A stretch of 63,704 nt of DNA, the filler included, from Collodictyon triciliatum (lineage: Eukaryota): assembly GCA_043381765.1 (NCBI GenBank). It is 7 parts of 7 records of this genome, joined end to end, with 100 filler letters (N's around TTAATTAATTAA, not from the genome) between each part and the next. Parts side by side here need not be neighbours in the genome. Positions count along the whole stretch, not along the records: positions 60,947 to 63,704 come from JBHJMP010002610.1; 6 more parts are not named here. One strand, written 5' to 3'. The translations under genes were made by a program, and so were the position numbers. A model generated the notes under the pieces. The model searched no databases. It worked only from the letters and a program-made list of their open reading frames with translations, and had not been told where the DNA came from. How positions within the stretch are numbered: position 1 is the first letter of the stretch; every line of letters begins with the position of its first letter. Positions 641-63,704 of the stretch are shown here, in pieces.

Positions 641-3600
641 ATGACCGACACAGCCCAAAGGTCGAAAGCAGGGGGTAAGTCAAGAGCATTCTCACTCTCA
701 TTTTCGCAGCCCCTTCTTGGTGATCCTGTGTGTATGCGCGTGTTTGGTTTTCACCACCAAACTTCACGCTGATATCAACAAAGACACACAGGCCTTTTAC
801 GAGGCCGTCGCGAGAGAGGCCGGCGTTGGTAATGGGGCTCGGGTCACAGAGCTTCTCGTTCACGCGCTTAGCCATCTCGTAGATTCTGGGCCCTTCCCAG
901 ACAAAAGGCTCTTTGCCACGCTTTCTTTAATTGCCTTGGAATATCCTCGGTTGTTCCACACACCAGAGGTTGTTGAGGTTCGTAGCAGCCTCTGCCAATG
1001 TGTCATTTCCTTTCACAAAGCCACTTTTAAACTCTGACAGATGGGCTGTTGTGAATGCAATTTGTGTTTGATGATGCATTACACTCAGCTAACTTACATA
1101 CAGAAAATGACGTCCATTCTCAAGATCGAGGGTGCCGCACTCAAAAATCTGAGATGCGTGCAGCAATTTTCAGTAACAATGCTGGCTCGGTTGTATGAAG
1201 AAGATGATGATTGGCCTATCCAGTTTGTCCATGCATACCTTGAAGACTGTTCGAAAGACCGGTCCTGGGTTGATGAAGATTCATCTCAGACCTTTGTGCA
1301 AAACATCATGACTGCGTTCATGGTAAATTCCTTATGATGTTTTTTTTTTTATTAGTTTCAAGGTGTGTTTGTTTGTTTGTTTGTTTGTTTGTTTGTTTGT
1401 TTGTTTGTTTGTTTGTTTGTTTGTTTGTTTGTTTGTTTGTTTGTTTGTTTGTTTGTTTGTTTGCATGTGCACGCTAAAATAGATACCACATACGTCTGCT
1501 ATCAAGCCGCTAAAGAATAATCCTGAAGAAGAAGCCCCGGTTTCAAATGAGAATCCAAGCAAGTATGGATGCAATTCTTAAAATGAAAATGAATACATAG
1601 GCAATACGTTATGTACATCTTAAGAAAGATATACATATAGGGATGTGTCAGTCAATGAAGGTTTTTTATGCGAATCTGAATCACCAGAATCCAGTGATGT
1701 AGAAGAAATTGAAATCGACCCACCCGTATCTGTCGTAGGTAAGGGTAGCGACATATAGCAGATCTTTCTAGCCTCCCACTATATTGTACTTGTATTTTGT
1801 TCTATATGATATTATTTCGTATTTGATTTTTCACAATTTAGAAGAAATTAAGAGTAATTACCTCATTGTAAATTGATTATGAATCTGTAAATTACCAAAC
1901 AGTCCAGCTTGAGTCTTTCCAGGACAATACATTCATACCCGCGGCCCAGTACAGCAAGGAACCATCTCTAAGGAACCGATATAGCTTGTCTATGATAAAG
2001 ATAGCCAAGGATGCACTAACACAGAAAATTGTGGCAGCATTATCACTGCCAATTGATTCACAGAAATCTGTGATATTACTAATCAAAGATACCATATCCA
2101 TACCCGAATGCAAACAATATGCAGTAAAATCAATAGAAGGCATTGTTTTATGATATCAATTTTATATTACTATATTACTTTAATTTACCAAAGCACCTTT
2201 CATATTTTTTTAAAAGAAAGGTATCACTAATAAAACGAATTAAAATACCATTTAATAATGACTTAGTATTAAGTATTTTATAATATTCCTCTCAATTCTA
2301 TTGAATTTATAGGGTGGGCTTTTAATTACATGTGTTCAAAAAATGCCACGACGTTGTTCCCAGTTCTGTGTAAATCGCTCAAAGAATATACGGAAGAAGT
2401 ACTTCTCCTCGGATTGATAGCCTTGAAATATTTTCTGCCTCATTTTACTGATTTCTTGATTTATAATACTAATGAATAACCTTTTGGAAGAATATTCCAC
2501 TCTTTCTCGTTCTTCTGCAACTTAGAATGAAACCCAGACGCAAAGAATGGATCATAGAGCATTTAAATGAGCTCATGCAACAATCACCAGAGTATTTATC
2601 CCTCGGTACGTCTCTATTCCCTTTCATTAATTGTAAAATCGATTCGATTGCATCTTAACTCCCACCCTTATGAAGTATATCTGCATGAAATAAAGAACAC
2701 AAATAGACCAAACAAACCAAACCAAACCAAACCAAACCAAACCAAACCAAACCAAACCAAACCAAACCAAACCAAACCAAACCAAACCAAACCAAACCAA
2801 ACCAACAAAAAAGAAAAGAAGACATAAAGTCAATAAGGATGCACGATCTATTACTATACTTAACGCTCATCAAACCAATTGTATACATATTGCATATAAA
2901 AAAAACTCTAAATACAAGAGGATTGTAAATGTATAGCCTTCCGAAAGGTCTTCGAGATGGAACACGGTTTCATCTCAAGCCGCCAACTTCAATCGGCCGG
3001 AGTAATGGACAAGCATCTATCCAATTTATTCTCCACCCTAGACAGTAAATCACGAATATATTATAAAGATGAACGATCCTATTTGTATTGCAGCTTCCAC
3101 TTCTTTACATACTTTACCAATATTACTTGGCCAAAANNNNNNNNNNNNNNNNNNNNNNNNNNNNNNNNNNNNNNNNNNNNNNNNNNNNNNNNNNNNNNNN
3201 NNNNNNNNNNNNNNNNNNNNNNNNNNNNNNNNNNNNNNNNNNNNNNNNNNNNNNNNNNNNNNNNNNNNNNNNNNNNNNNNNNNNNNNNNNNNNNNNNNNN
3301 NNNNNNNNNNNNNNNNNNNNNNNNNNNNNNNNNNNNNNNNNNNNNNNNNNNNNNNNNNNNNNNNNNNNNNNNNNNNNNNNNNNNNNNNNNNNNNNNNNNN
3401 NNNNNNNNNNNNNNNNNNNNNNNNTACTGTAGTTTCTCGAGGGCAATTTTAAATTTGGCTCACTCTGCATAGAAATCCAAGATGACATTGTGCGTAAGAT
3501 ATGCCTTGGTTTGATGGAGACTCATCCAGGATTAATAGACTTTCTCCGATCAAAAATGCAACCAGAAGTAAAATATATATCCCAAATCAATCATGTGAAT

Positions 3601-6600
3601 TCGTAATCGATTAACTAAAAATCCAACATGGCCAAAATTATTCAAAGGCATATACCATATTCAAACCATGCAGGATGCTCTAAATTGGATACAGTTTATA
3701 TTCGAGCTAATCATCCAAACTATACTTGCCGGAGCTCCTCCAATAATCACAGAAAACAATCCAGGTTAGTAATATGATATTTAGTCGTCCTACATATATG
3801 TCCTTTTTTAACTGTTGAGTTATGATTTATAATATTTTTTTTATTTCTCATTAATTTCTATATCCTTACTTAAGCTGTACCAATCATGAGTTAAAAAATG
3901 CATCACGTTAGAAATATTTAAAACTGTTTTATTATAAGGAGTTCAGCAACTGACCAAGATTGATATGTTCTGGAAATACCAACAGCAAGTATCAGCTGTC
4001 ATCGTACGTTTCTTCCCTTATGACTTATATTTTCTTATGCCTACGTGCTCTTCTGGTCACCCTTTTAAATAAAAAGTAAATAGCCCATATCACTTCCATC
4101 GAGGTAGTCCCGAGGTATTACATGGGTCAACGAAATGTTCTCTATTTATTCGGGAGATTATGAAGTCGACCGACTCTACAACATGATCGGCAAGATGCTC
4201 TTCTTAGAAATGCCAACCCTTCAAAAAAATGCTGATGTAGTTACCCTCCATTTGTTATATCTTACATGATAAATAACTATGCTTTTTATTTTCATTTTCC
4301 CTCAGTCCAAAAACTCAACTCATAATCAATCACAAAACAATATTAGATATCATTGCAAGAAAAAGACCGAAAAGTCGCAAAGTTATTGGTTGATGAAGTC
4401 ATGATAGGAGGAGATATTATCTTGTCCTTGTTGTTTATAATTAATACGCAATCATCACTTCAGAAAGCATTTTTCTTGGAAACTGTTGAGAAAGTCCTAG
4501 AAAGAAACGGAAAAATTCAAACGAAAGTATTTTTTTTTTTTTTTTATGCTCTCCATGATGCTTGCTCACAAATTAATGTTCAAGAACAAAAAAAAATAAA
4601 ATAAAAAAAATAACGAAATATGCAAGCTGGAAATGTGTTATAGTCCATATACATATGTCCATTTCTTTCGTTTACCTTATCATATGCACAAGTATTCGAG
4701 GAGAGTTCATAACCTCAACACTCATGAACCACACACTAGGTTAACTTTCCGGACTCCATCATGAAAGTTGATAATGAATTGGTAGTTAATTGGGTGCTTG
4801 ATTTGTCGACCATACAAACACCTATGATTGATACTATTCTCGCTTCAAAAGATATGTTCTGGAGAAGTTGTATAATTTGTTTGGTTTTGATTTCTTACAA
4901 TCCTGAGGTCCTTGGAGGGGTACATTTCTAACGGATGATGATTTTTATATATAAAAAATGTTCATAGAGGAATATACTATCATCTCTATACATTTCTTTT
5001 GCATTTTATGCAAATTATCCAAAATACCAAGAAACTTATGTATGTGTATAATTGTATTCTGTTAGTCCAATCACGTCGATATTTTGGAAAATTACTCACA
5101 TTTAACTATTATAGTATGCTTGGAAAAATATACCTACACTTAAATTACTAATTGAAGAGGTCATCACGAAAGTCTATTCACCAGAAATGATAGATCCACA
5201 ATACAAGGTCAGTTGAAATATATTCCTGTCTTTCAGTTAGCTTTTTTTTCACTAAATTTTTAAAATTACGGAACCAAGGAAGTTGAAGCTCAAATAAGAA
5301 GACAAGAGGTTGATGCTATACTTGATACAGAAAGATGTCAACTTAAGGGTGAGGACAAGAATTTTTTTGATTTTTTTGAAAAAAATTACACGCTATTTTA
5401 AAAGCAATATGTTAAATCATTTTATAATAATTTTCTCTGAAAGCTAACGGAATGGAGTCCATGGTCGATTCCATTCAAGAGTCAAACAGTCAACTCTTAA
5501 GTCAAGTACAGTTTCGTCTATTCTTCTAAATCATTTTTATATTCATATTTGAATCGAATAAAGGAATTATATATGTAAAAAAAAATATTTTTTTTTAGAC
5601 TTGCATATGTATGTGATTTAAAGAACCTATTAAAACATGCAGTTGATGATCTACGATCCATCACAACATTGTCGATGCCCGCCTCCCAGTGTCGCAGAAA
5701 AACTAAAGCGAACATTTGATGACTCTCCATTAACTAGAAAGATAAGCTCTTGTCGATCCCCTCGTAATTTTTTTCTCCGTAATTCATACTTGAAAATAAA
5801 ATAAAATAAAATAAAATAAAATAAAATAAAATAAAATAAAATAAAATAAAATAAAATAAAATAAAATAAAATAAAATAAAATAAAATAAAATAAAAATCA
5901 AAGTGACCTGAAGAACATCATTAGGCAATTTATTTAGAAGGAGAGATAATTCTCAATTCGACGCCTGCATAACTAGAACCTTCGAATCTTCCTGAATAAG
6001 CATCTGAATTCTTTTACTATAGCATTTCTTGTGGAAACCCTTAAGAAACAGGACATGAAGATATCCCGTATCTGGCTTGTACCTTTGATTCAGTCCAATT
6101 CAGATTTGCTCTCTGCCTTGGACAATAGCTACATGTTCGGTCTCATGAGATCCTACTTTATGGAGAAGCGAGTGCGTCTTACGCTATTCTTCATTTTTTT
6201 TTTGTACGAATAAAATAGGGTTTCTACCATACACTCAAGATGGATTTGATAGTCTAAATACCATTTACATAATCTCTGTATAGCCCGACCCCACATTCCC
6301 AATAACAAACTTGGTCGCCATAATGAAGCAGAGGTTTCTGTTTAACGAAGGAGGGCGTCTTCCTAGAGATTTAGTCACAATACTATTAAAAAACTTGCAT
6401 TCAGGGTAAAGACAGTAGCATATTAATATAGCTTTTCATTTTGCGTAGACTTTTTGATGGTATTTGCAATAGTGGGATGTATATACAAAGAAAAATTCAA
6501 GGGATTTGTTTTTCACATAATTTATGACCCCGCATCAAGATATGACGCTGTCAGAGAATCGTCTATTAAGTGCTTTAGTCAGATATTCTCTGGGGATTCA

Positions 6601-10861: not shown

Positions 10862-10961
10862 NNNNNNNNNNNNNNNNNNNNNNNNNNNNNNNNNNNNNNN
10901 NNNNNTTAATTAATTAANNNNNNNNNNNNNNNNNNNNNNNNNNNNNNNNNNNNNNNNNNNN
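10862..10961. other. Artificial contig linker N44-TTAATTAATTAA-N44
   Basis: Identical 100-nt spacer occurs six times; core has stop codons in all six frames. Confidence 0.97.
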
Positions 10962-21818: not shown

Positions 21819-21918
21819 NNNNNNNNNNNNNNNNNNNNNNNNNNNNNNNNNNNNNNNNNNNNTTAATTAATTAANNNNNNNNNNNNNNNNNNNNNNNNNN
21901 NNNNNNNNNNNNNNNNNN
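21819..21918. other. Artificial contig linker
   Basis: N44-TTAATTAATTAA-N44. Confidence 0.97.
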
Positions 21919-32771: not shown

Positions 32772-32871
32772 NNNNNNNNNNNNNNNNNNNNNNNNNNNNN
32801 NNNNNNNNNNNNNNNTTAATTAATTAANNNNNNNNNNNNNNNNNNNNNNNNNNNNNNNNNNNNNNNNNNNN
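32772..32871. other. Artificial contig linker
   Basis: N44-TTAATTAATTAA-N44. Confidence 0.97.
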
Positions 32872-43718: not shown

Positions 43719-43818
43719 NNNNNNNNNNNNNNNNNNNNNNNNNNNNNNNNNNNNNNNNNNNNTTAATTAATTAANNNNNNNNNNNNNNNNNNNNNNNNNN
43801 NNNNNNNNNNNNNNNNNN
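43719..43818. other. Artificial contig linker
   Basis: N44-TTAATTAATTAA-N44. Confidence 0.97.
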
Positions 43819-43960: not shown

Positions 43961-54206
<10,246 letters not shown>

Positions 54207-54664: not shown

Positions 54665-54764
54665 NNNNNNNNNNNNNNNNNNNNNNNNNNNNNNNNNNNN
54701 NNNNNNNNTTAATTAATTAANNNNNNNNNNNNNNNNNNNNNNNNNNNNNNNNNNNNNNNNNNNN
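54665..54764. other. Artificial contig linker
   Basis: N44-TTAATTAATTAA-N44. Confidence 0.97.
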
Positions 54765-60846: not shown

Positions 60847-60946
60847 NNNNNNNNNNNNNNNNNNNNNNNNNNNNNNNNNNNNNNNNNNNNTTAATTAATT
60901 AANNNNNNNNNNNNNNNNNNNNNNNNNNNNNNNNNNNNNNNNNNNN
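60847..60946. other. Artificial contig linker
   Basis: N44-TTAATTAATTAA-N44. Confidence 0.97.
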
Positions 60947-61012
60947 CCCTGGCTCGTTGTACCTTTTCTGTAACTTCTCATTGTATTGATCACTAGTGCT
61001 TGCGTTGCTCAT
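60947..61012 (-). CDS. 5' end of a gene running off the contig (MSNASTSDQYNEKLQKRYNEPG...)
   Basis: ATG at 61012, 22 open codons to the contig edge, preceded by an AT-rich divergent spacer. Confidence 0.45.
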
Positions 61013-61103
61013 TACATAAAGAATAATTTTTTTTTGTGTAAAAAAACGCAGCTTAAAAACAATTTTACCTTACGTTATAATTGATAAGTACTTTAAGCAA
61101 ACA
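61013..61103. promoter_or_regulatory. AT-rich divergent promoter region of the virus-like contig
   Basis: 91-nt spacer between head-to-head ATGs; contains GCTTAAAAAC, TTATAA and AAACA|ATG. Confidence 0.45.
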
Positions 61104-61604
61104 ATGGCCCGCACTGTCAGCAGAGAAGAACAGATGAGCGACATGACTACCCGCACCTTGACCGGAGAAGAGCTAGCAAGACTCAACTACCTGTGTTTTA
61201 TCGAATGGGGAGAAAACCTGGACGGCGTGCGACAAATGGTAGAAATCGCCAGGAGACTCCGCAGAAGCAATCACAAGTCCTACGTGAATAGAAAATCACG
61301 AAGGAAGCAAACCAATGGCTCGCATGAATTTCAAATCGTCGAAGCGCCCGCTATGCCCCTTGTCGATTACACAGGGACCTCTTCAAGTTCTCTAAACTCT
61401 TCACTCGAATCTGGCAGCCCTAATTCTCTGATTGCTGCTGCCGAACGCGTCCGTAAAGCCCTGACCCCTCCTGACTCTCCCCCTAAAATTTCTTACTCTC
61501 TCAAATCAACACCTACCCCCAGCCCTGTTACATACGGTTATGACACGATGGAAGTATTGCCAACAGGCATAGACTCCAGTGACTTCATAAGATGCAAAGA
61601 ATAA
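61104..61604 (+). CDS. Hypothetical 166-aa protein with basic NLS-like patch and Ser/Pro-rich C-terminal half
   Basis: Intronless ORF, good ATG context (AAACAATGG), RRLRRSNHKSYVNRKSRRK, AATAAA overlapping the stop. Confidence 0.75.
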   Translation: MARTVSREEQMSDMTTRTLTGEELARLNYLCFIEWGENLDGVRQMVEIARRLRRSNHKSYVNRKSRRKQTNGSHEFQIVEAPAMPLVDYTGTSSSSLNSSLESGSPNSLIAAAERVRKALTPPDSPPKISYSLKSTPTPSPVTYGYDTMEVLPTGIDSSDFIRCKE

Positions 61605-61626
61605 AATGTCTTTCACTTTATTCTTT
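61596..61626. terminator. Hairpin with AATAAA on both strands between convergent genes
   Basis: AAAGAATAAA (61596-61605) and TTTATTCTTT (61617-61626) form a perfect inverted repeat containing both stop codons. Confidence 0.55.
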
Positions 61627-63704
61627 TGTGCGTGCTCTCTTGGCGCTGCTGACGATCGTATCAGTAGAGAAATACCCGTGTAAATTGGCTCCGTCTGTCA
61701 TCAAAGTGCGGACCTTCGGGTAATCAATCACATACTTGCTGTGATCAATTTTAATATGGTCCTTGTATTGTGTTTTAAAACTTATCCATGGCGCGCTGTG
61801 AGTAAACGACTTATACTCAAGCACTTTTCGATTAGGCAATCTTTTGTTGCTAAACATCTTGTATATGTCGTATATTTGATCAATCGCAAGTTCAAACGGA
61901 GCGCCATTGTGCCACTTACACTTACCTATGAAGAAGAGGTCGAAGCTGTCCACCGCATAGTCGTTCCATTCGACAAACATGAATTTAATAAACTGTTCAA
62001 CAGGGTCGGTACATTTCTCTGCCAGTGTCTCGCATGTCTCGCTTTTTGGAAACACGTTAAAGTTAAATTTTGAATCATACTCGTTCAACAAAACCTTGAC
62101 AAAAACCTTGACAAAGTCGGGGTCGCCTGTTTCGCTTGTCAGTTGCTCTATTTCTTCTTCGCCAAGTCTGTGCTCTCGTACATCAAACACCGGGAATCGT
62201 CTCATGTTGTCTTTTTCAAACACAATTCCAATTTCTTTGTTTGTGTTGAGTATAAAGTTGCACGTATTCTTTACTGGACTTGGGTTGTGATAGAGCATGC
62301 GTATATGAGTCTCATCCCGGTCAACGGCCTCCTTAATTTGTCCCTGTAAACCCTTTGTCTGCGCTACTTCCGACTCTTCCAGAATCAACAACAACTTGTT
62401 TTGCATGTTCATGTTCTTCTCACCAAATACCTCATTTAGAGATGAGTGTGTACCGCCGTATTGCTTGCCCAGAACACCCTGTATATACAGCTTATGAAAA
62501 AAAGATGTCTTGCCAGTGCCTCCTTTGTTGTTTCGGAATATCATCATCTTGCCAATTCGATAATGCGGATGGAATATTATTTTGGCTAAATACTGCATCA
62601 CATATTTCAGTGACGCAGGATTGCCAGCACACAGATACTGGGACAACTGCTTATAGTTCATACTCTGTTTCCAGATAGCATAATCATCCGCTGTCACCGA
62701 GCTGCGAATTTGACTACAGTATCCCAACCAGTCAGTTTTTTGTATCTGATTTAACTCTGGAAAATACTCTTCGAACTTGAACCCTTTGAAATAATTGTAA
62801 GCTCGTGGACTGTAATAGTTGGTAAACATGTTGTATGGCATAAAGTCGAAATACTTGTAGCGCCGTTCAGGACATAAATTTTTCTGTACATGTTTCCAAT
62901 ATTTGTCTCCAAATTCCTCACAGTACGGACCTGGATTTTCTATGGGTTCGGCCTTGCGAGCGTTGTCTTCATGTTCATAAAACAACTTTCCAAGTATCAT
63001 AAAGTGTTCAAGAGCAAACTTTGTGATACACAGGCCATCGTATTCTTTTTTATCAGGCTTTGGCACAAAAGTCGACTGAATAGTTTTACTCTCAAATTCT
63101 AGGGTGTACCCGGTATGCTCACGTATGTATTCGGACAACTTGACATTTAGTTCTGTTCTGTATTGACTTTTGTTGACATACAGTCCATCAAACACATAGA
63201 CACTAACATGAACACTGTTTTGTCGCAAAAAATTGATAGCCAGTTGCATCACTTTTAATTCCTCTGTCTGCAAGTAGTAACTCAACGTGCTATAGATGCG
63301 ATTGCTGTGTTCGTATAGAGCGTTGGTGTCTTTTTTGAACTTTACGTTGTGCCACTCCTTACACTTTTCGTATACGTTACCGGCTAGGACTAGCATCTCT
63401 TCTCCCAGGGTTTTAGTAAACTCATCACCCTGAACCCATTTGTTGCCATATGCGATGCTCAAATACAGCTTCTTGGCTTCTTTGTGTGACATGTTGAAAT
63501 CCTTCATCGTTTTCTGGATAATCTGCTCACGGTCCTCAACATATGTCTTTATCGCAGTGTGGGGCAGATCCCACTTCCTGGCCAAATCCAAGCTTAAGCT
63601 ATAGTGGCAATTCTTGATGTCCAGGTTAATGTGTGTGTCACATAACAAGAATTGACGCACGGGTTTTGGGAGCTTTAACACGGAAACCGATTTATGATAC
63701 ACCC
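61618..63704 (-). CDS. Family-A-like DNA polymerase/primase (TVpol-type) fused to an SF3 helicase (D5/NrS-1/DUF5906-like); N-terminus truncated by window end
   Basis: Pol motifs VY...SVLKLPKPVRQFL, A: INLDIKNCH, B: KEAKKLYLSIAYG, SYYLQTEE, C: YVFDGLYV; linker FDFMPY...YNYFKGF, LCAGN...YLAKIIFHP; Walker A KGGTGKTS, Walker B LLILEE, motif C FILNTN, Arg finger MRRF. Confidence 0.9.
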   Translation of the reverse strand, partial: VYHKSVSVLKLPKPVRQFLLCDTHINLDIKNCHYSLSLDLARKWDLPHTAIKTYVEDREQIIQKTMKDFNMSHKEAKKLYLSIAYGNKWVQGDEFTKTLGEEMLVLAGNVYEKCKEWHNVKFKKDTNALYEHSNRIYSTLSYYLQTEELKVMQLAINFLRQNSVHVSVYVFDGLYVNKSQYRTELNVKLSEYIREHTGYTLEFESKTIQSTFVPKPDKKEYDGLCITKFALEHFMILGKLFYEHEDNARKAEPIENPGPYCEEFGDKYWKHVQKNLCPERRYKYFDFMPYNMFTNYYSPRAYNYFKGFKFEEYFPELNQIQKTDWLGYCSQIRSSVTADDYAIWKQSMNYKQLSQYLCAGNPASLKYVMQYLAKIIFHPHYRIGKMMIFRNNKGGTGKTSFFHKLYIQGVLGKQYGGTHSSLNEVFGEKNMNMQNKLLLILEESEVAQTKGLQGQIKEAVDRDETHIRMLYHNPSPVKNTCNFILNTNKEIGIVFEKDNMRRFPVFDVREHRLGEEEIEQLTSETGDPDFVKVFVKVLLNEYDSKFNFNVFPKSETCETLAEKCTDPVEQFIKFMFVEWNDYAVDSFDLFFIGKCKWHNGAPFELAIDQIYDIYKMFSNKRLPNRKVLEYKSFTHSAPWISFKTQYKDHIKIDHSKYVIDYPKVRTLMTDGANLHGYFSTDTIVSSAKRARTKE

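What the first reader, a model, noticed from the sequence alone, without database searches (positions are those of the whole stretch)
61618..63704. Intact TVpol (PolA-like)-SF3 helicase fusion: replicase of a Polinton-like virus/virophage-type element
Seen: a 2.1-kb uninterrupted ORF, whereas most exons in the other pieces are short. The N-terminal ~210 aa carry PolA-like motifs (DIKNCH near 63621, AKKLYLSIAYG, VFDG near 63184-63192). The C-terminal part has Walker A GGTGKT (~62508-62525), Walker B LILEE, motif C LNTN and RRF. It ends in a basic NLS-like tail (KRARTKE). Established: a TVpol fused to an SF3 helicase is the replication protein of the Sputnik virophage and of many Polinton-like viruses lacking a protein-primed PolB. 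Inference: this is a recent or active element, probably an undescribed lineage. The helicase looks like the NrS-1/DUF5906 subtype. The frame is open to the window end, so the GTG 'start' is probably an internal Val.
Basis: partly seen in the sequence, partly recalled or inferred. Interest (0 to 1): 0.85.

Follow-up and report, generated by a model that had tools for sequence, protein, structure and literature searches.

The report
Polinton-like virus replicase gene fragment
This is the replication gene of a small freshwater virus of the polinton-like/virophage type, a minimal DNA polymerase I-like enzyme fused to a ring helicase; it is a well-known gene type, and it sits on a short separate contig rather than visibly inside the host genome.

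Summary
The 694-codon ORF at 61618-63702 (minus strand) is real and runs open into the window end. Relatives are 755-782 aa, so about 66 N-terminal residues lie beyond the window.

The C-half is a DUF5906/NrS-1-type SF3 helicase. The N-half has a family-A polymerase fold. A model of the 94%-identical relative (pLDDT 93.7) matches Pol theta and Klenow at Z about 14, and virophage replication proteins at TM 0.84. The catalytic Asp, Lys and Asp are invariant in 109 of 109 homologues.

This fusion is already described as a typical replicase of polinton-like viruses (PLVs) and virophages (PMC4642659, PMC12220804).

Two caveats:
- The window is seven pieces joined by N/TTAATTAATTAA spacers. The gene lies on its own 2758-base piece, so integration into the eukaryote is not shown.
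- The window holds no capsid gene.

A lake-metagenome contig 93% identical in DNA puts a penton-like gene and an A32-like ATPase next to the replicase. dN/dS against it is 0.15.

Verdict: a new member of a known kind, of low to moderate interest.

The parts
60947..63704 (.). Separate 2758-base piece (a contig fragment) of a small virus-like genome. An N44-TTAATTAATTAA-N44 spacer bounds it on the left and the window end on the right.
   Evidence: Spacer map. GC 0.42 against 0.315-0.383 for the other pieces. A lake-metagenome contig of 8403 bases spans the whole piece at its positions 2558-5317 with 126 mismatches and 8 gaps, so relatives continue past both ends and no host junction is seen.
61618..63702 (-). 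TVpol-S3H replicase gene: 694 codons plus a stop, with the 5' end cut by the window end (about 66 codons missing).
   Evidence: It is 94% identical in protein to P0002 (762 aa) and 92.7% in DNA to L021. dN/dS is 0.146.
63058..63702 (-). TVpol (minimal family-A polymerase-like) domain, window residues 1-215. It holds the palm Asp28 (LDIKNCHY), fingers Lys77 (HKEAKK...YG), Glu148 and the palm Asp172-Gly173 (VFDGLY). The thumb helices and the beta-hairpin Arg lie beyond the window.
   Evidence: Model of the 94% relative, residues 1-300: pLDDT 93.7. PDB and BFVD fold matches. Invariant columns in 109 of 109 sequences. Coordinates.
62683..63057 (-). Linker and pre-helicase region (residues 216-340), with conserved motifs such as YFDFxPYN and AYNxFKGF. 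No family assigned.
   Evidence: Invariant columns in A1. No Pfam match. PHROG and NrS-1 matches begin at residues 341-369.
61945..62682 (-). SF3 helicase domain of the DUF5906/NrS-1 type (residues 341-586). Walker A is at 62506-62523, Walker B at 62371-62394, motif C at 62239-62253 and the Arg finger RR at 62194-62205.
   Evidence: Pfam PF19263 at E 8.6e-13, 49.4 bits against a cut-off of 27.6. PHROG DNA primase at E 4e-17. NrS-1 chain 6k9c at E 4.4e-4 with the single sequence and 1.9e-44 with the profile. The motifs are invariant in A1.
61621..61944 (-). C-terminal region (residues 587-694), ending in the conserved basic tail KRARTKE (61621-61641). Its function is not assigned. Reading the tail as an NLS is inference only.
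   Evidence: The tail is conserved in close relatives and R691 is invariant in A1. No family match.
61104..61604 (+). Convergent neighbour ORF of 166 aa: a lineage-specific protein of unknown function that belongs to the same element.
   Evidence: DNA similarity to L021 runs through the replicase stop codon to 61466, where L021 ends. Only 3 homologues were found (94, 77 and 64% identity); two lie on contigs of the same lengths (8403 and 5337 bases) as those carrying the close replicases, the third on a 1490-base contig. No Pfam match. Atlas scores of 0.80 or less. Relatives carry replaced or skipped segments inside it (table 5).

Best explanation
The ORF is the replication protein of a small double-stranded DNA virus of the polinton-like virus/virophage assemblage (Preplasmiviricota). 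Its N-terminal TVpol domain is a minimal family-A polymerase with a palm and an inserted fingers module. That domain is fused to a C-terminal superfamily-3 helicase of the DUF5906/NrS-1 type.

Proposed mechanism (inferred): the helicase assembles as a ring, most likely a hexamer, and unwinds the viral DNA using ATP. Walker A, Walker B, motif C and the Arg finger are all intact. The tethered TVpol domain lays down primers on the exposed strand and probably extends them, using two-metal catalysis by Asp28 and Asp172, with Lys77 on the fingers helix binding the incoming nucleotide.

The gene lies on a short contig of its own within a eukaryotic assembly. Close relatives in lake metagenomes place it beside a penton-like capsid gene and an A32-like packaging ATPase. 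It is therefore a fragment of a capsid-encoding virus genome, with a PLV favoured over a virophage. It could be endogenous in the sequenced eukaryote or co-sequenced with it.

Shown here: the ORF, its domains, folds and conserved residues, purifying selection, and the gene neighbourhood of relatives. Inferred: enzymatic activities, oligomeric state, nuclear targeting by the basic tail, and the host.
For: - ORF and truncation.
- Helicase: Pfam DUF5906 above its cut-off. NrS-1 helicase chain at profile E 1.9e-44, and 7ola 'DNA primase' at 3.2e-15. Walker A, Walker B, motif C and RR are invariant in the 11-sequence clade.
- TVpol fold: a model of residues 1-300 of the 94% relative has pLDDT 93.7 and pTM 0.89. 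All 48 listed Foldseek PDB rows are family-A polymerases. VIA-align gives Z 14.4 and 14.3 for Pol theta and Klenow, over 260 and 256 of 300 residues.
- Viral matches: BFVD gives Zamilon virophage replication protein at TMq 0.84 and Qinghai Lake virophage 'helicase/primase/polymerase'.
- Conserved residues: R66, D94, K143, E214, D238 and G239 (relative's numbering) are present in 109 of 109 homologues. The order of secondary-structure elements fits an RRM-like palm with the fingers inserted after strand 1.
- Family size: 2852 cluster representatives at E<=1e-3; of the 150 listed, many match both the N-domain and the helicase.
- Context: L021 (93% DNA identity) carries a penton-like gene, a 109-aa ORF, an A32-like ATPase (Pox_A32, E 9.8e-9) and the replicase. 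The penton-like model matches Tetraselmis viridis virus S1, NCLDV 'minor capsid', adomavirus LO5 and Mavirus minor capsid proteins. The distant IMG/VR relative L005 has replicase, penton-like gene, a 471-aa ORF and an A32 ATPase in a row.
- Purifying selection: dN/dS 0.146, with dS 0.189.
- Circulating relatives: freshwater and lake metagenome contigs at about 95% identity in 4 runs of 3 studies.
- Atlas neighbours: 'Viruses 83-100%', commonest phylum Preplasmiviricota in 4 of the 5 rows shown and Uroviricota in 1.
- Literature (passages read): TVpol-S3H is the replicase of PgVV, PLV-YSL1, PLV-RED1, Sputnik and OLV (PMC4642659, PMC3671162). It is widespread in cryptophyte PLVs (PMC12220804). 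The only biochemically characterised TV-Pol member as of 2020, CCPol-MP, is a primase-polymerase (PMC7581432).
Against: - No capsid, ATPase, integrase or terminal repeat lies in the window. tblastn with the ORFs of 100 aa or more from L004, L005, L020 and L021 hit only the replicase, and no repeats were found in the piece.
- The major capsid protein of the close lineage was never seen, so PLV against virophage is undecided.
- The piece is unlinked to host DNA, so integration, host and contamination cannot be told apart.
- The fold model is of a 94% relative, not of the window's truncated protein.
- A sequence profile alone finds no family-A polymerase in the PDB. The polymerase kinship rests on structure prediction, motifs and published profile work.
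- In the window copy and its three closest relatives (P0002, P0027, P0028), the Arg of the fingers RxxxK motif is His (R 82, K 18, H 1 of 109). The first Asp of DxD is Asn (D 99 of 109). Full activity is therefore not guaranteed.
- No TVpol-S3H fusion protein has been assayed, to my knowledge and according to PMC7581432.
Confidence: 0.87

Rival explanations
1. The piece is part of an endogenous (integrated) PLV copy in the sequenced eukaryote's chromosome. The integration would be recent, because the gene is still open.
For: - The piece is filed in a eukaryotic assembly. The other six pieces carry split eukaryotic genes: RME-8, ULK4-like HEAT, INTS1 and DnaJ.
- PLVs with TVpol-S3H are often endogenous in protists (PMC12220804, passages read).
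- The ORF is open over all 694 codons.
Against: - No host-virus junction is seen. The left end abuts a spacer, and relatives' contigs continue as virus-like sequence past both ends.
- GC is 0.42 against 0.315-0.383 for the other pieces.
- Relatives at about 95% identity occur in lake metagenomes, and dN/dS is 0.146. Both fit a replicating virus at least as well.
- This is a sub-question of the best explanation rather than a contradiction of it.
Confidence: 0.35
2. The element is a virophage (Sputnik/OLV-like class) rather than a PLV.
For: - The best named structural matches of the N-domain are virophage replication proteins (Zamilon, Qinghai Lake virophage).
- TVpol-S3H was first noted in Sputnik and OLV (PMC3671162, PMC2579912).
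Against: - Replicases are swapped freely between capsid lineages (bioRxiv 10.64898/2026.10.13.758929 and 10.64898/2026.06.19.733378, passages read). The replicase therefore cannot classify the virus.
- The penton-like protein of L021 matches the PLV Tetraselmis viridis virus S1 (ranks 3 and 5, E 4.8e-10) ahead of Mavirus (rank 28) and Qinghai Lake virophage (rank 40). That model has only pLDDT 69.
- No virophage-type capsid or cysteine protease was seen in L021.
Confidence: 0.15
3. The gene belongs to a giant virus (Nucleocytoviricota), or to a capsid-less replicon that moves on its own, and not to a small capsid-encoding virus.
For: - BFVD matches include proteins of Pyramimonas orientalis virus (E 2.6e-17) and Catovirus (E 6.9e-16).
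- A 2026 preprint proposes that PolA/AEP replicases may mobilise on their own (10.64898/2026.10.13.758929, passages read).
Against: - In L021 the replicase sits within 2.4 kb of a penton-like gene and an A32-like ATPase.
- The penton, replicase and ORF166 homologues all come from contigs of one and the same length, 8403 bases.
- The longest contigs recorded for close relatives are 15.9-17.2 kb, which is PLV size.
Confidence: 0.05
4. It is a bacteriophage or plasmid primase-helicase that contaminates the assembly.
For: - The helicase part resembles phage 'P4-specific primase' and 'primase/polymerase' proteins and the phage NrS-1 helicase.
- One Atlas neighbour cluster is labelled Uroviricota.
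- Three 'uncultured Caudovirales phage' entries appear among the BFVD matches.
Against: - 0 of 102 phage records cover the N-domain, and identities are 22-27%.
- No relative was found in prokaryote genome contigs by the pattern scan, whose sensitivity is limited.
- Neighbours of the 94% relative are eukaryotic-virus-type genes, a Pox_A32 ATPase and a penton.
Confidence: 0.03

Closest known systems
Sputnik V13 / Zamilon 'DNA replication protein' and OLV25 (virophage TVpol-S3H)
   Same: Same two-domain architecture and similar length (Zamilon 778 aa against about 760 aa). The N-domain model superposes on the Zamilon prediction at TMq 0.84, rmsd 2.5 A. The architecture is described in PMC2579912 and PMC3671162 (passages read).
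   Different: Only 24% identity over the aligned N-domain. The neighbouring penton-like gene of the close relative looks more PLV-like than virophage-like.
TVpol-S3H replicases of PgVV, PLV-YSL1, PLV-RED1 and cryptophyte PLVs
   Same: The same fusion, used as the replicase of 14-40-kb capsid-encoding elements with an A32-like ATPase and a penton (PMC4642659, PMC12220804, passages read). The window's close relative shows that gene neighbourhood.
   Different: Identity to these named proteins was not measured. The supplementary tables that list them were closed, and the sequences were not to hand. The window lineage was not found in IMG/VR by three pattern scans.
Helicase domain of the phage NrS-1 primase-polymerase (PDB 6k9c/6k9e; Pfam DUF5906)
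   Same: The P-loop core, Walker B, motif C and Arg finger align, and the Pfam family is the same.
   Different: To my recollection, NrS-1 carries an AEP-type prim-pol N-domain. Here the N-domain is family-A-like. Single-sequence similarity is low (E 4.4e-4).
CCPol-MP primase of SCCmec elements (the only assayed TV-Pol member as of 2020, PMC7581432)
   Same: It was placed in the TV-Pol group by Iyer et al. 2008 and is a family-A-like enzyme that primes DNA synthesis. This is the best experimental analogue for the proposed priming role.
   Different: It is bacterial and not fused to its helicase, and it needs a small partner protein, MP (PMC7581432, passage read). No MP-like partner was looked for here, and similarity to CCPol was not measured.
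Family-A DNA polymerases (Klenow, Taq, Pol theta, T7) and T7-like RNA polymerases
   Same: The palm, fingers and thumb core superposes at Z 10-14.4 over about 250-260 residues. Motif A Asp, motif B Lys and motif C Asp have counterparts (the correspondence to the Klenow motifs is from recall and spacing).
   Different: The core is about 280 residues against 520 or more in the polymerase chains listed. There is no exonuclease domain, identity is 9-14%, and it is not detectable by sequence profile against the PDB.

Membership tests
TV-Pol (Iyer, Abhiman & Aravind 2008, PMC2579912) | Core palm (RRM-like) with two highly conserved metal-binding aspartates | tested here: met
   Asp28 and Asp172 of the window protein (D94 and D238 of the relative) are present in 109 of 109 homologues. 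In the model they sit at the end of strand 90-95 and at the turn of hairpin 232-243.
TV-Pol (Iyer, Abhiman & Aravind 2008, PMC2579912) | Fingers module inserted after the first palm strand, carrying an RxxxK motif | tested here: inconclusive
   The insertion topology is met: helices 98-227 lie between strand 90-95 and hairpin 232-243. Lys77 (K143) is present in 109 of 109. The Arg position is His in the window copy and its three closest relatives (P0002, P0027, P0028); across the family it is R 82, K 18, other 9 of 109.
TV-Pol (Iyer, Abhiman & Aravind 2008, PMC2579912) | [quoted passage not shown] | tested here: inconclusive
   R66 is present in 109 of 109 homologues. In the window this codon is cut by the window end. 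Only its last two bases, GG, remain, which fit Arg (CGG/AGG) or Gly.
TV-Pol (Iyer, Abhiman & Aravind 2008, PMC2579912) | N-terminal thumb of two antiparallel helices | tested here: inconclusive
   The model of the 94% relative has helices 9-16 and 25-37, and the fold alignments start at residue 1. The geometry of the helices was not measured, and these residues lie outside the window.
TV-Pol (Iyer, Abhiman & Aravind 2008, PMC2579912) | [quoted passage not shown] | tested here: met
   Z 14.4, 14.3, 12.2 and 10.1; Zamilon, TMq 0.84.
SF3 helicase, DUF5906 (PF19263) / NrS-1 type | Pfam score above the gathering cut-off, plus Walker A, Walker B, motif C (Asn) and the Arg finger | tested here: met
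   49.4 bits against a cut-off of 27.6. GGTGKT, LLLILEES, ILNTN and MRRF are all invariant in A1. Profile E 1.9e-44 to 6k9c.
Polinton-like virus (element level; PMC4642659: PgVV-like MCP, minor capsid protein, packaging ATPase) | A32-like packaging ATPase and penton (minor capsid) gene | tested here: inconclusive
   Neither gene is in the window. In the 93%-identical contig L021 there is a Pox_A32 ATPase at E 9.8e-9, 35.5 bits against a cut-off of 22.8. There is also a penton-like ORF whose model (pLDDT 69) matches viral penton and minor capsid proteins.
Polinton-like virus (element level; PMC4642659: PgVV-like MCP, minor capsid protein, packaging ATPase) | PLV-type double-jelly-roll major capsid protein | not tested
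   No contig of the close lineage that holds an MCP could be fetched. The 471-aa ORF in the distant relative L005 is only a positional candidate.
Endogenous viral element of the sequenced eukaryote | A junction between viral and host DNA, target-site duplication or TIRs | tested here: not met
   The piece is bounded by a spacer and the window end and has no repeats. Relatives' contigs run on past both ends. The absence applies to this 2758-base piece only.
AEP primase-SF3 helicase (D5-like) | AEP fold of the N-domain | tested here: inconclusive
   No AEP primase chain stands among the 19 best rows or the 48 rows listed, all of which are family-A or T7-like polymerases. A family that is not listed is not thereby excluded.

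The most novel reading that the evidence does not exclude
The 2.8-kb contig may be a piece of a PLV that is integrated in, or persistently infects, the sequenced eukaryote. If so, it gives a host to a freshwater PLV lineage otherwise known only from lake metagenomes, where relatives are about 95% identical.

This sublineage has also fixed, under purifying selection, a His in place of the fingers Arg of RxxxK (1 of 109 homologues) and an Asn in place of the first Asp of the DxD motif. Its TVpol may therefore bind or select nucleotides differently from other TVpols.
Probability: 0.3. Interest if true: 0.45.

Novelty: new member of a known kind. Interest (0 to 1): 0.25.

Why it matters
TVpol-S3H is already recognised as a typical replicase of polinton-like viruses and virophages, so the gene adds no new kind of system.

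Its modest value lies in three points:
- It places a member of a small, metagenome-only freshwater lineage in a eukaryotic genome assembly. The lineage comprises 11 clusters at 90% identity among 5.8 billion proteins. This could supply a host link if integration or infection is confirmed.
- The high-confidence model and the 109-sequence alignment pin down a minimal family-A polymerase core of about 280 residues with six invariant residues. That makes it a convenient target for the first biochemical test of a fused TVpol-helicase. According to PMC7581432, none had been assayed by 2020.
- For anyone using this window, the 'pieces' are unlinked contigs. Neighbourhood arguments across the spacers are invalid.

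Tried and rejected
- Whole-genome search of the window's own assembly: no genome is held.
- Rfam scan of the window: 0 matches.
- Pfam on five long ORFs of other pieces: nothing useful. A wider scan of 70 of the 128 stop-to-stop ORFs (the 70 longest, 75 aa or more, low-complexity ones dropped) gave eukaryotic families.
- IMG/VR scans:
  - With the single protein: no match.
  - With alignment A1: 20 loci, all only 20-28% identical.
  - With the penton alignment: none.
- Metagenome scan: 1 locus, L021.
- Profile of A2 against PDB sequences: helicase matches only and no polymerase. Residue-by-residue mapping onto Klenow therefore could not be shown and rests on motif spacing and recall.
- Sequencing runs: no RNA holder is listed, and no run holds half or more of the words (best share 0.23).
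- ORF166: Atlas scores of 0.80 or less, which is chance level; no Pfam match.
- Earlier findings of this scan: nothing by place or by sequence.
- Other PLV genes in the window: tblastn with the ORFs of 100 aa or more from L004, L005, L020 and L021 hit only the replicase. Two further hits are antisense ORFs inside it.
- Repeats and TIRs in the piece: none.
- AEP-primase reading of the N-domain: not supported by the fold lists, but not formally excluded.
- Supplementary tables of PMC12220804 and PMC4642659, which list named TVpol-S3H proteins, were closed and may bear on whether this lineage is already described.
Full report
**1. The observation**

The minus-strand ORF 61618..63702 has 694 sense codons and a stop. 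From the base composition of its own piece, 694 open codons would arise by chance with a probability of about 6e-21. It is the longest ORF in the window. Only 9 ORFs reach 150 aa, and the next longest is 337 aa.

The frame runs into the window end. The nominal GTG start aligns with Val67 of full-length relatives of 755-782 aa. About 66 N-terminal residues are therefore missing, either because the window cuts the gene or because the contig ends there.

**2. The window is a concatenation**

Seven pieces are joined by N44-TTAATTAATTAA-N44 spacers. The ORF lies on the last piece, 60947-63704 (2758 bases). Its GC is 0.42, against 0.315-0.383 for the other six pieces.

The other pieces carry split eukaryotic genes (70 of 128 candidate ORFs were scanned):
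- RME-8 N-terminal domain in three ORF fragments, best E 6.8e-42.
- DnaJ and GYF.
- ULK4-like HEAT repeats and a protein kinase domain.
- Integrator subunit 1.

The assembly is therefore eukaryotic, but nothing links the viral piece physically to it. No whole genome is held for the window.

**3. The helicase half**

- Pfam gives only DUF5906 (residues 393-502, E 8.6e-13, 49.4 bits against a cut-off of 27.6).
- PHROGs gives 'DNA primase' families over residues 341-586.
- The nearest solved chain is the NrS-1 'Primase' helicase region, at E 4.4e-4 with the single sequence and 1.9e-44 with a 109-sequence profile.
- Walker A (GGTGKT), Walker B (LLLILEES), motif C (ILNTN) and the RR finger are invariant in the 11-sequence close clade.

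**4. The polymerase-like half**

No Pfam or PDB sequence match covers residues 1-340. I aligned residues 1-300 of the 94% relative (L021:2406-3305) with 108 homologues (A2) and folded it. The model has pLDDT 93.7 and pTM 0.89.

- Foldseek against the PDB: all 48 listed rows are family-A DNA polymerases. Klenow 1kfd scores E 6.9e-7 with TMq 0.53.
- Foldseek-independent search of 48,161 chains:
  - Pol theta, Z 14.4 (260 residues, rmsd 3.8).
  - Klenow, Z 14.3.
  - T7 DNA polymerase, Z 12.2.
  - Yeast mitochondrial RNA polymerase, Z 11.6.
  - T7 RNA polymerase, Z 10.1.
  - Family-B polymerases appear only from Z 7.6 downward.
- BFVD: the best named matches are the Zamilon virophage 'DNA replication protein' (TMq 0.84, rmsd 2.5, E 2.4e-19) and the Qinghai Lake virophage 'helicase/primase/polymerase'. 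Ordinary phage PolA proteins follow far behind.

Six columns are invariant in 109 of 109 sequences: R66, D94, K143, E214, D238 and G239. In window numbering, D94, K143, E214 and D238 are D28, K77, E148 and D172.

In the model, D94 ends strand 90-95 and K143 lies on helix 139-150. D238-G239 form the turn of hairpin 232-243, and helices 98-227 are inserted between them. This is the arrangement that Iyer et al. 2008 gave as defining TV-Pol: a palm with two Asp, fingers inserted after strand 1 with RxxxK, a beta-hairpin Arg and a two-helix thumb (PMC2579912, passages read).

Two lineage-specific departures are shared by the window, P0002, P0027 and P0028:
- The Arg of RxxxK is His (R 82, K 18, H 1 of 109).
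- The first Asp of DxD is Asn (D 99 of 109).

**5. Relatives and context**

*Close clade.* 11 clusters were found among 5.8 billion proteins, at 49-94% identity. All are 732-782 aa long and come from JGI, Logan, ENA and one NCBI source.

*Wider family.* 2852 cluster representatives score E<=1e-3, 434 score <=1e-10 and 10 score <=1e-30. Of the 150 listed, many match both domains.

*L021.* This 4807-base lake-metagenome contig is 92.7% identical in DNA to window 61466-63704. Upstream of its replicase it carries:
- A penton-like ORF.
- A 109-aa basic ORF.
- An A32-like ATPase (Pox_A32, E 9.8e-9).

The penton-like model (pLDDT 69) matches several viral penton and minor capsid proteins:
- Tetraselmis viridis virus S1 proteins.
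- NCLDV 'minor capsid' proteins.
- Adomavirus LO5.
- Mavirus minor capsid protein.
- An adenovirus penton.

*Synteny in a second relative.* Homologues of the penton (P0178), the replicase (P0027) and the window's ORF166 (P0188) are each recorded on a contig of 8403 bases. A contig of that same length spans the entire window piece with 126 mismatches and 8 gaps. The gene order is thus conserved, and the viral sequence continues beyond both ends of the piece.

*Distant IMG/VR relatives.* These are 20-28% identical and lie on contigs of 5-27 kb. L005 has, in a row, the replicase, a penton-like gene, a 471-aa ORF, an A32 ATPase and a collagen/YadA fibre gene.

**6. Selection and occurrence**

Against L021, dS is 0.189, dN is 0.028 and dN/dS is 0.146 over 695 codons. 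The best public holders are freshwater and lake metagenomes. Sixteen rows from 12 studies hold part of the stretch, with a best word share of 0.23. Four runs from 3 studies, when laid on the piece, show contigs about 95% identical. No exact holder is listed.

**7. Refutation tests**

- Phage records match only residues 278-601, at 22-27% identity. 0 of 102 cover 80% of the query.
- The prokaryote genome scan found no relative, with limited sensitivity.
- Atlas neighbours are 'Viruses', with Preplasmiviricota the commonest phylum in 4 of the 5 rows shown and Uroviricota in 1.

**8. Comparison with what is known**

- TVpol fused to S3H is the replicase of Sputnik, OLV and YSLV1 (PMC3671162).
- The fusion is widespread in cryptophyte PLVs (PMC12220804).
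- Two 2026 preprints call it a typical PLV replication gene. They also show that replicases swap between capsid lineages (10.64898/2026.06.19.733378 and 10.64898/2026.10.13.758929).

For all of these papers I read only the passages found by term search.

CCPol-MP of SCCmec is the only assayed TV-Pol member as of 2020, and it is a primase-polymerase (PMC7581432, passage). The priming role proposed here is therefore an inference by analogy.

**9. Verdict**

The gene is a new member of a known kind. Three points are not shown: integration in the eukaryote, the class of the virus (PLV is favoured), and whether the lineage is undescribed.

The neighbour ORF166 (61104-61604) belongs to the element, but its function is unknown.

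Noticed in passing
L021:2060-2387 (upstream of the replicase in the 94% relative; beyond the window end): A 330-base non-coding stretch packed with repeats. It holds 11-12-nt iterons CCCTGCTCAAC x3 plus a fourth copy, with an inverted copy about 200 nt away. It also has a 22-nt inverted repeat (95% complementary, arms 208 nt apart) and a 12-nt-stem hairpin. It is a candidate replication origin or promoter for the replicase.
   Followed up: partly
window 10862-10961, 21819-21918, 32772-32871, 43719-43818, 54665-54764, 60847-60946: N44-TTAATTAATTAA-N44 spacers show that the window is seven unlinked pieces placed end to end. Most pieces break at microsatellites. Neighbourhood arguments across the spacers are invalid.
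   Followed up: yes
window 61104-61604 (+): A 166-aa ORF convergent with the replicase, with a helical N-terminal part followed by a basic stretch and a Ser/Pro-rich tail. Only three homologues were found (94, 77 and 64% identity); two lie on contigs of the same lengths (8403 and 5337 bases) as those carrying the close replicases, the third on a 1490-base contig. Relatives show replaced or skipped segments inside it. It evolves much faster than the replicase, and its function is unknown.
   Followed up: partly
window 63472-63474 (His73) and 63625-63627 (Asn26) of the replicase: The sublineage (window, P0002, P0027, P0028) has His where 100 of 109 homologues have Arg or Lys in the fingers RxxxK motif. 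It has Asn where 99 of 109 have the first Asp of DxD. dN/dS is nonetheless low.
   Followed up: partly
window pieces 1-6 (e.g. 44000-49400): ORF fragments on the other pieces match eukaryotic families: RME-8_N (3 fragments, best E 6.8e-42), DnaJ, GYF_2, ULK4-like HEAT, Pkinase, INTS1 and a weak Chitin_synth_2 match. The scan gives counts only, so the fragments were not mapped to coordinates.
   Followed up: no
L005:15799-18048 and L005:4701-7539: The distant IMG/VR relative L005 encodes a 750-aa protein with collagen repeats and YadA-stalk repeats, a probable fibre. It also encodes a glycosyltransferase-61 and a methyltransferase.
   Followed up: no
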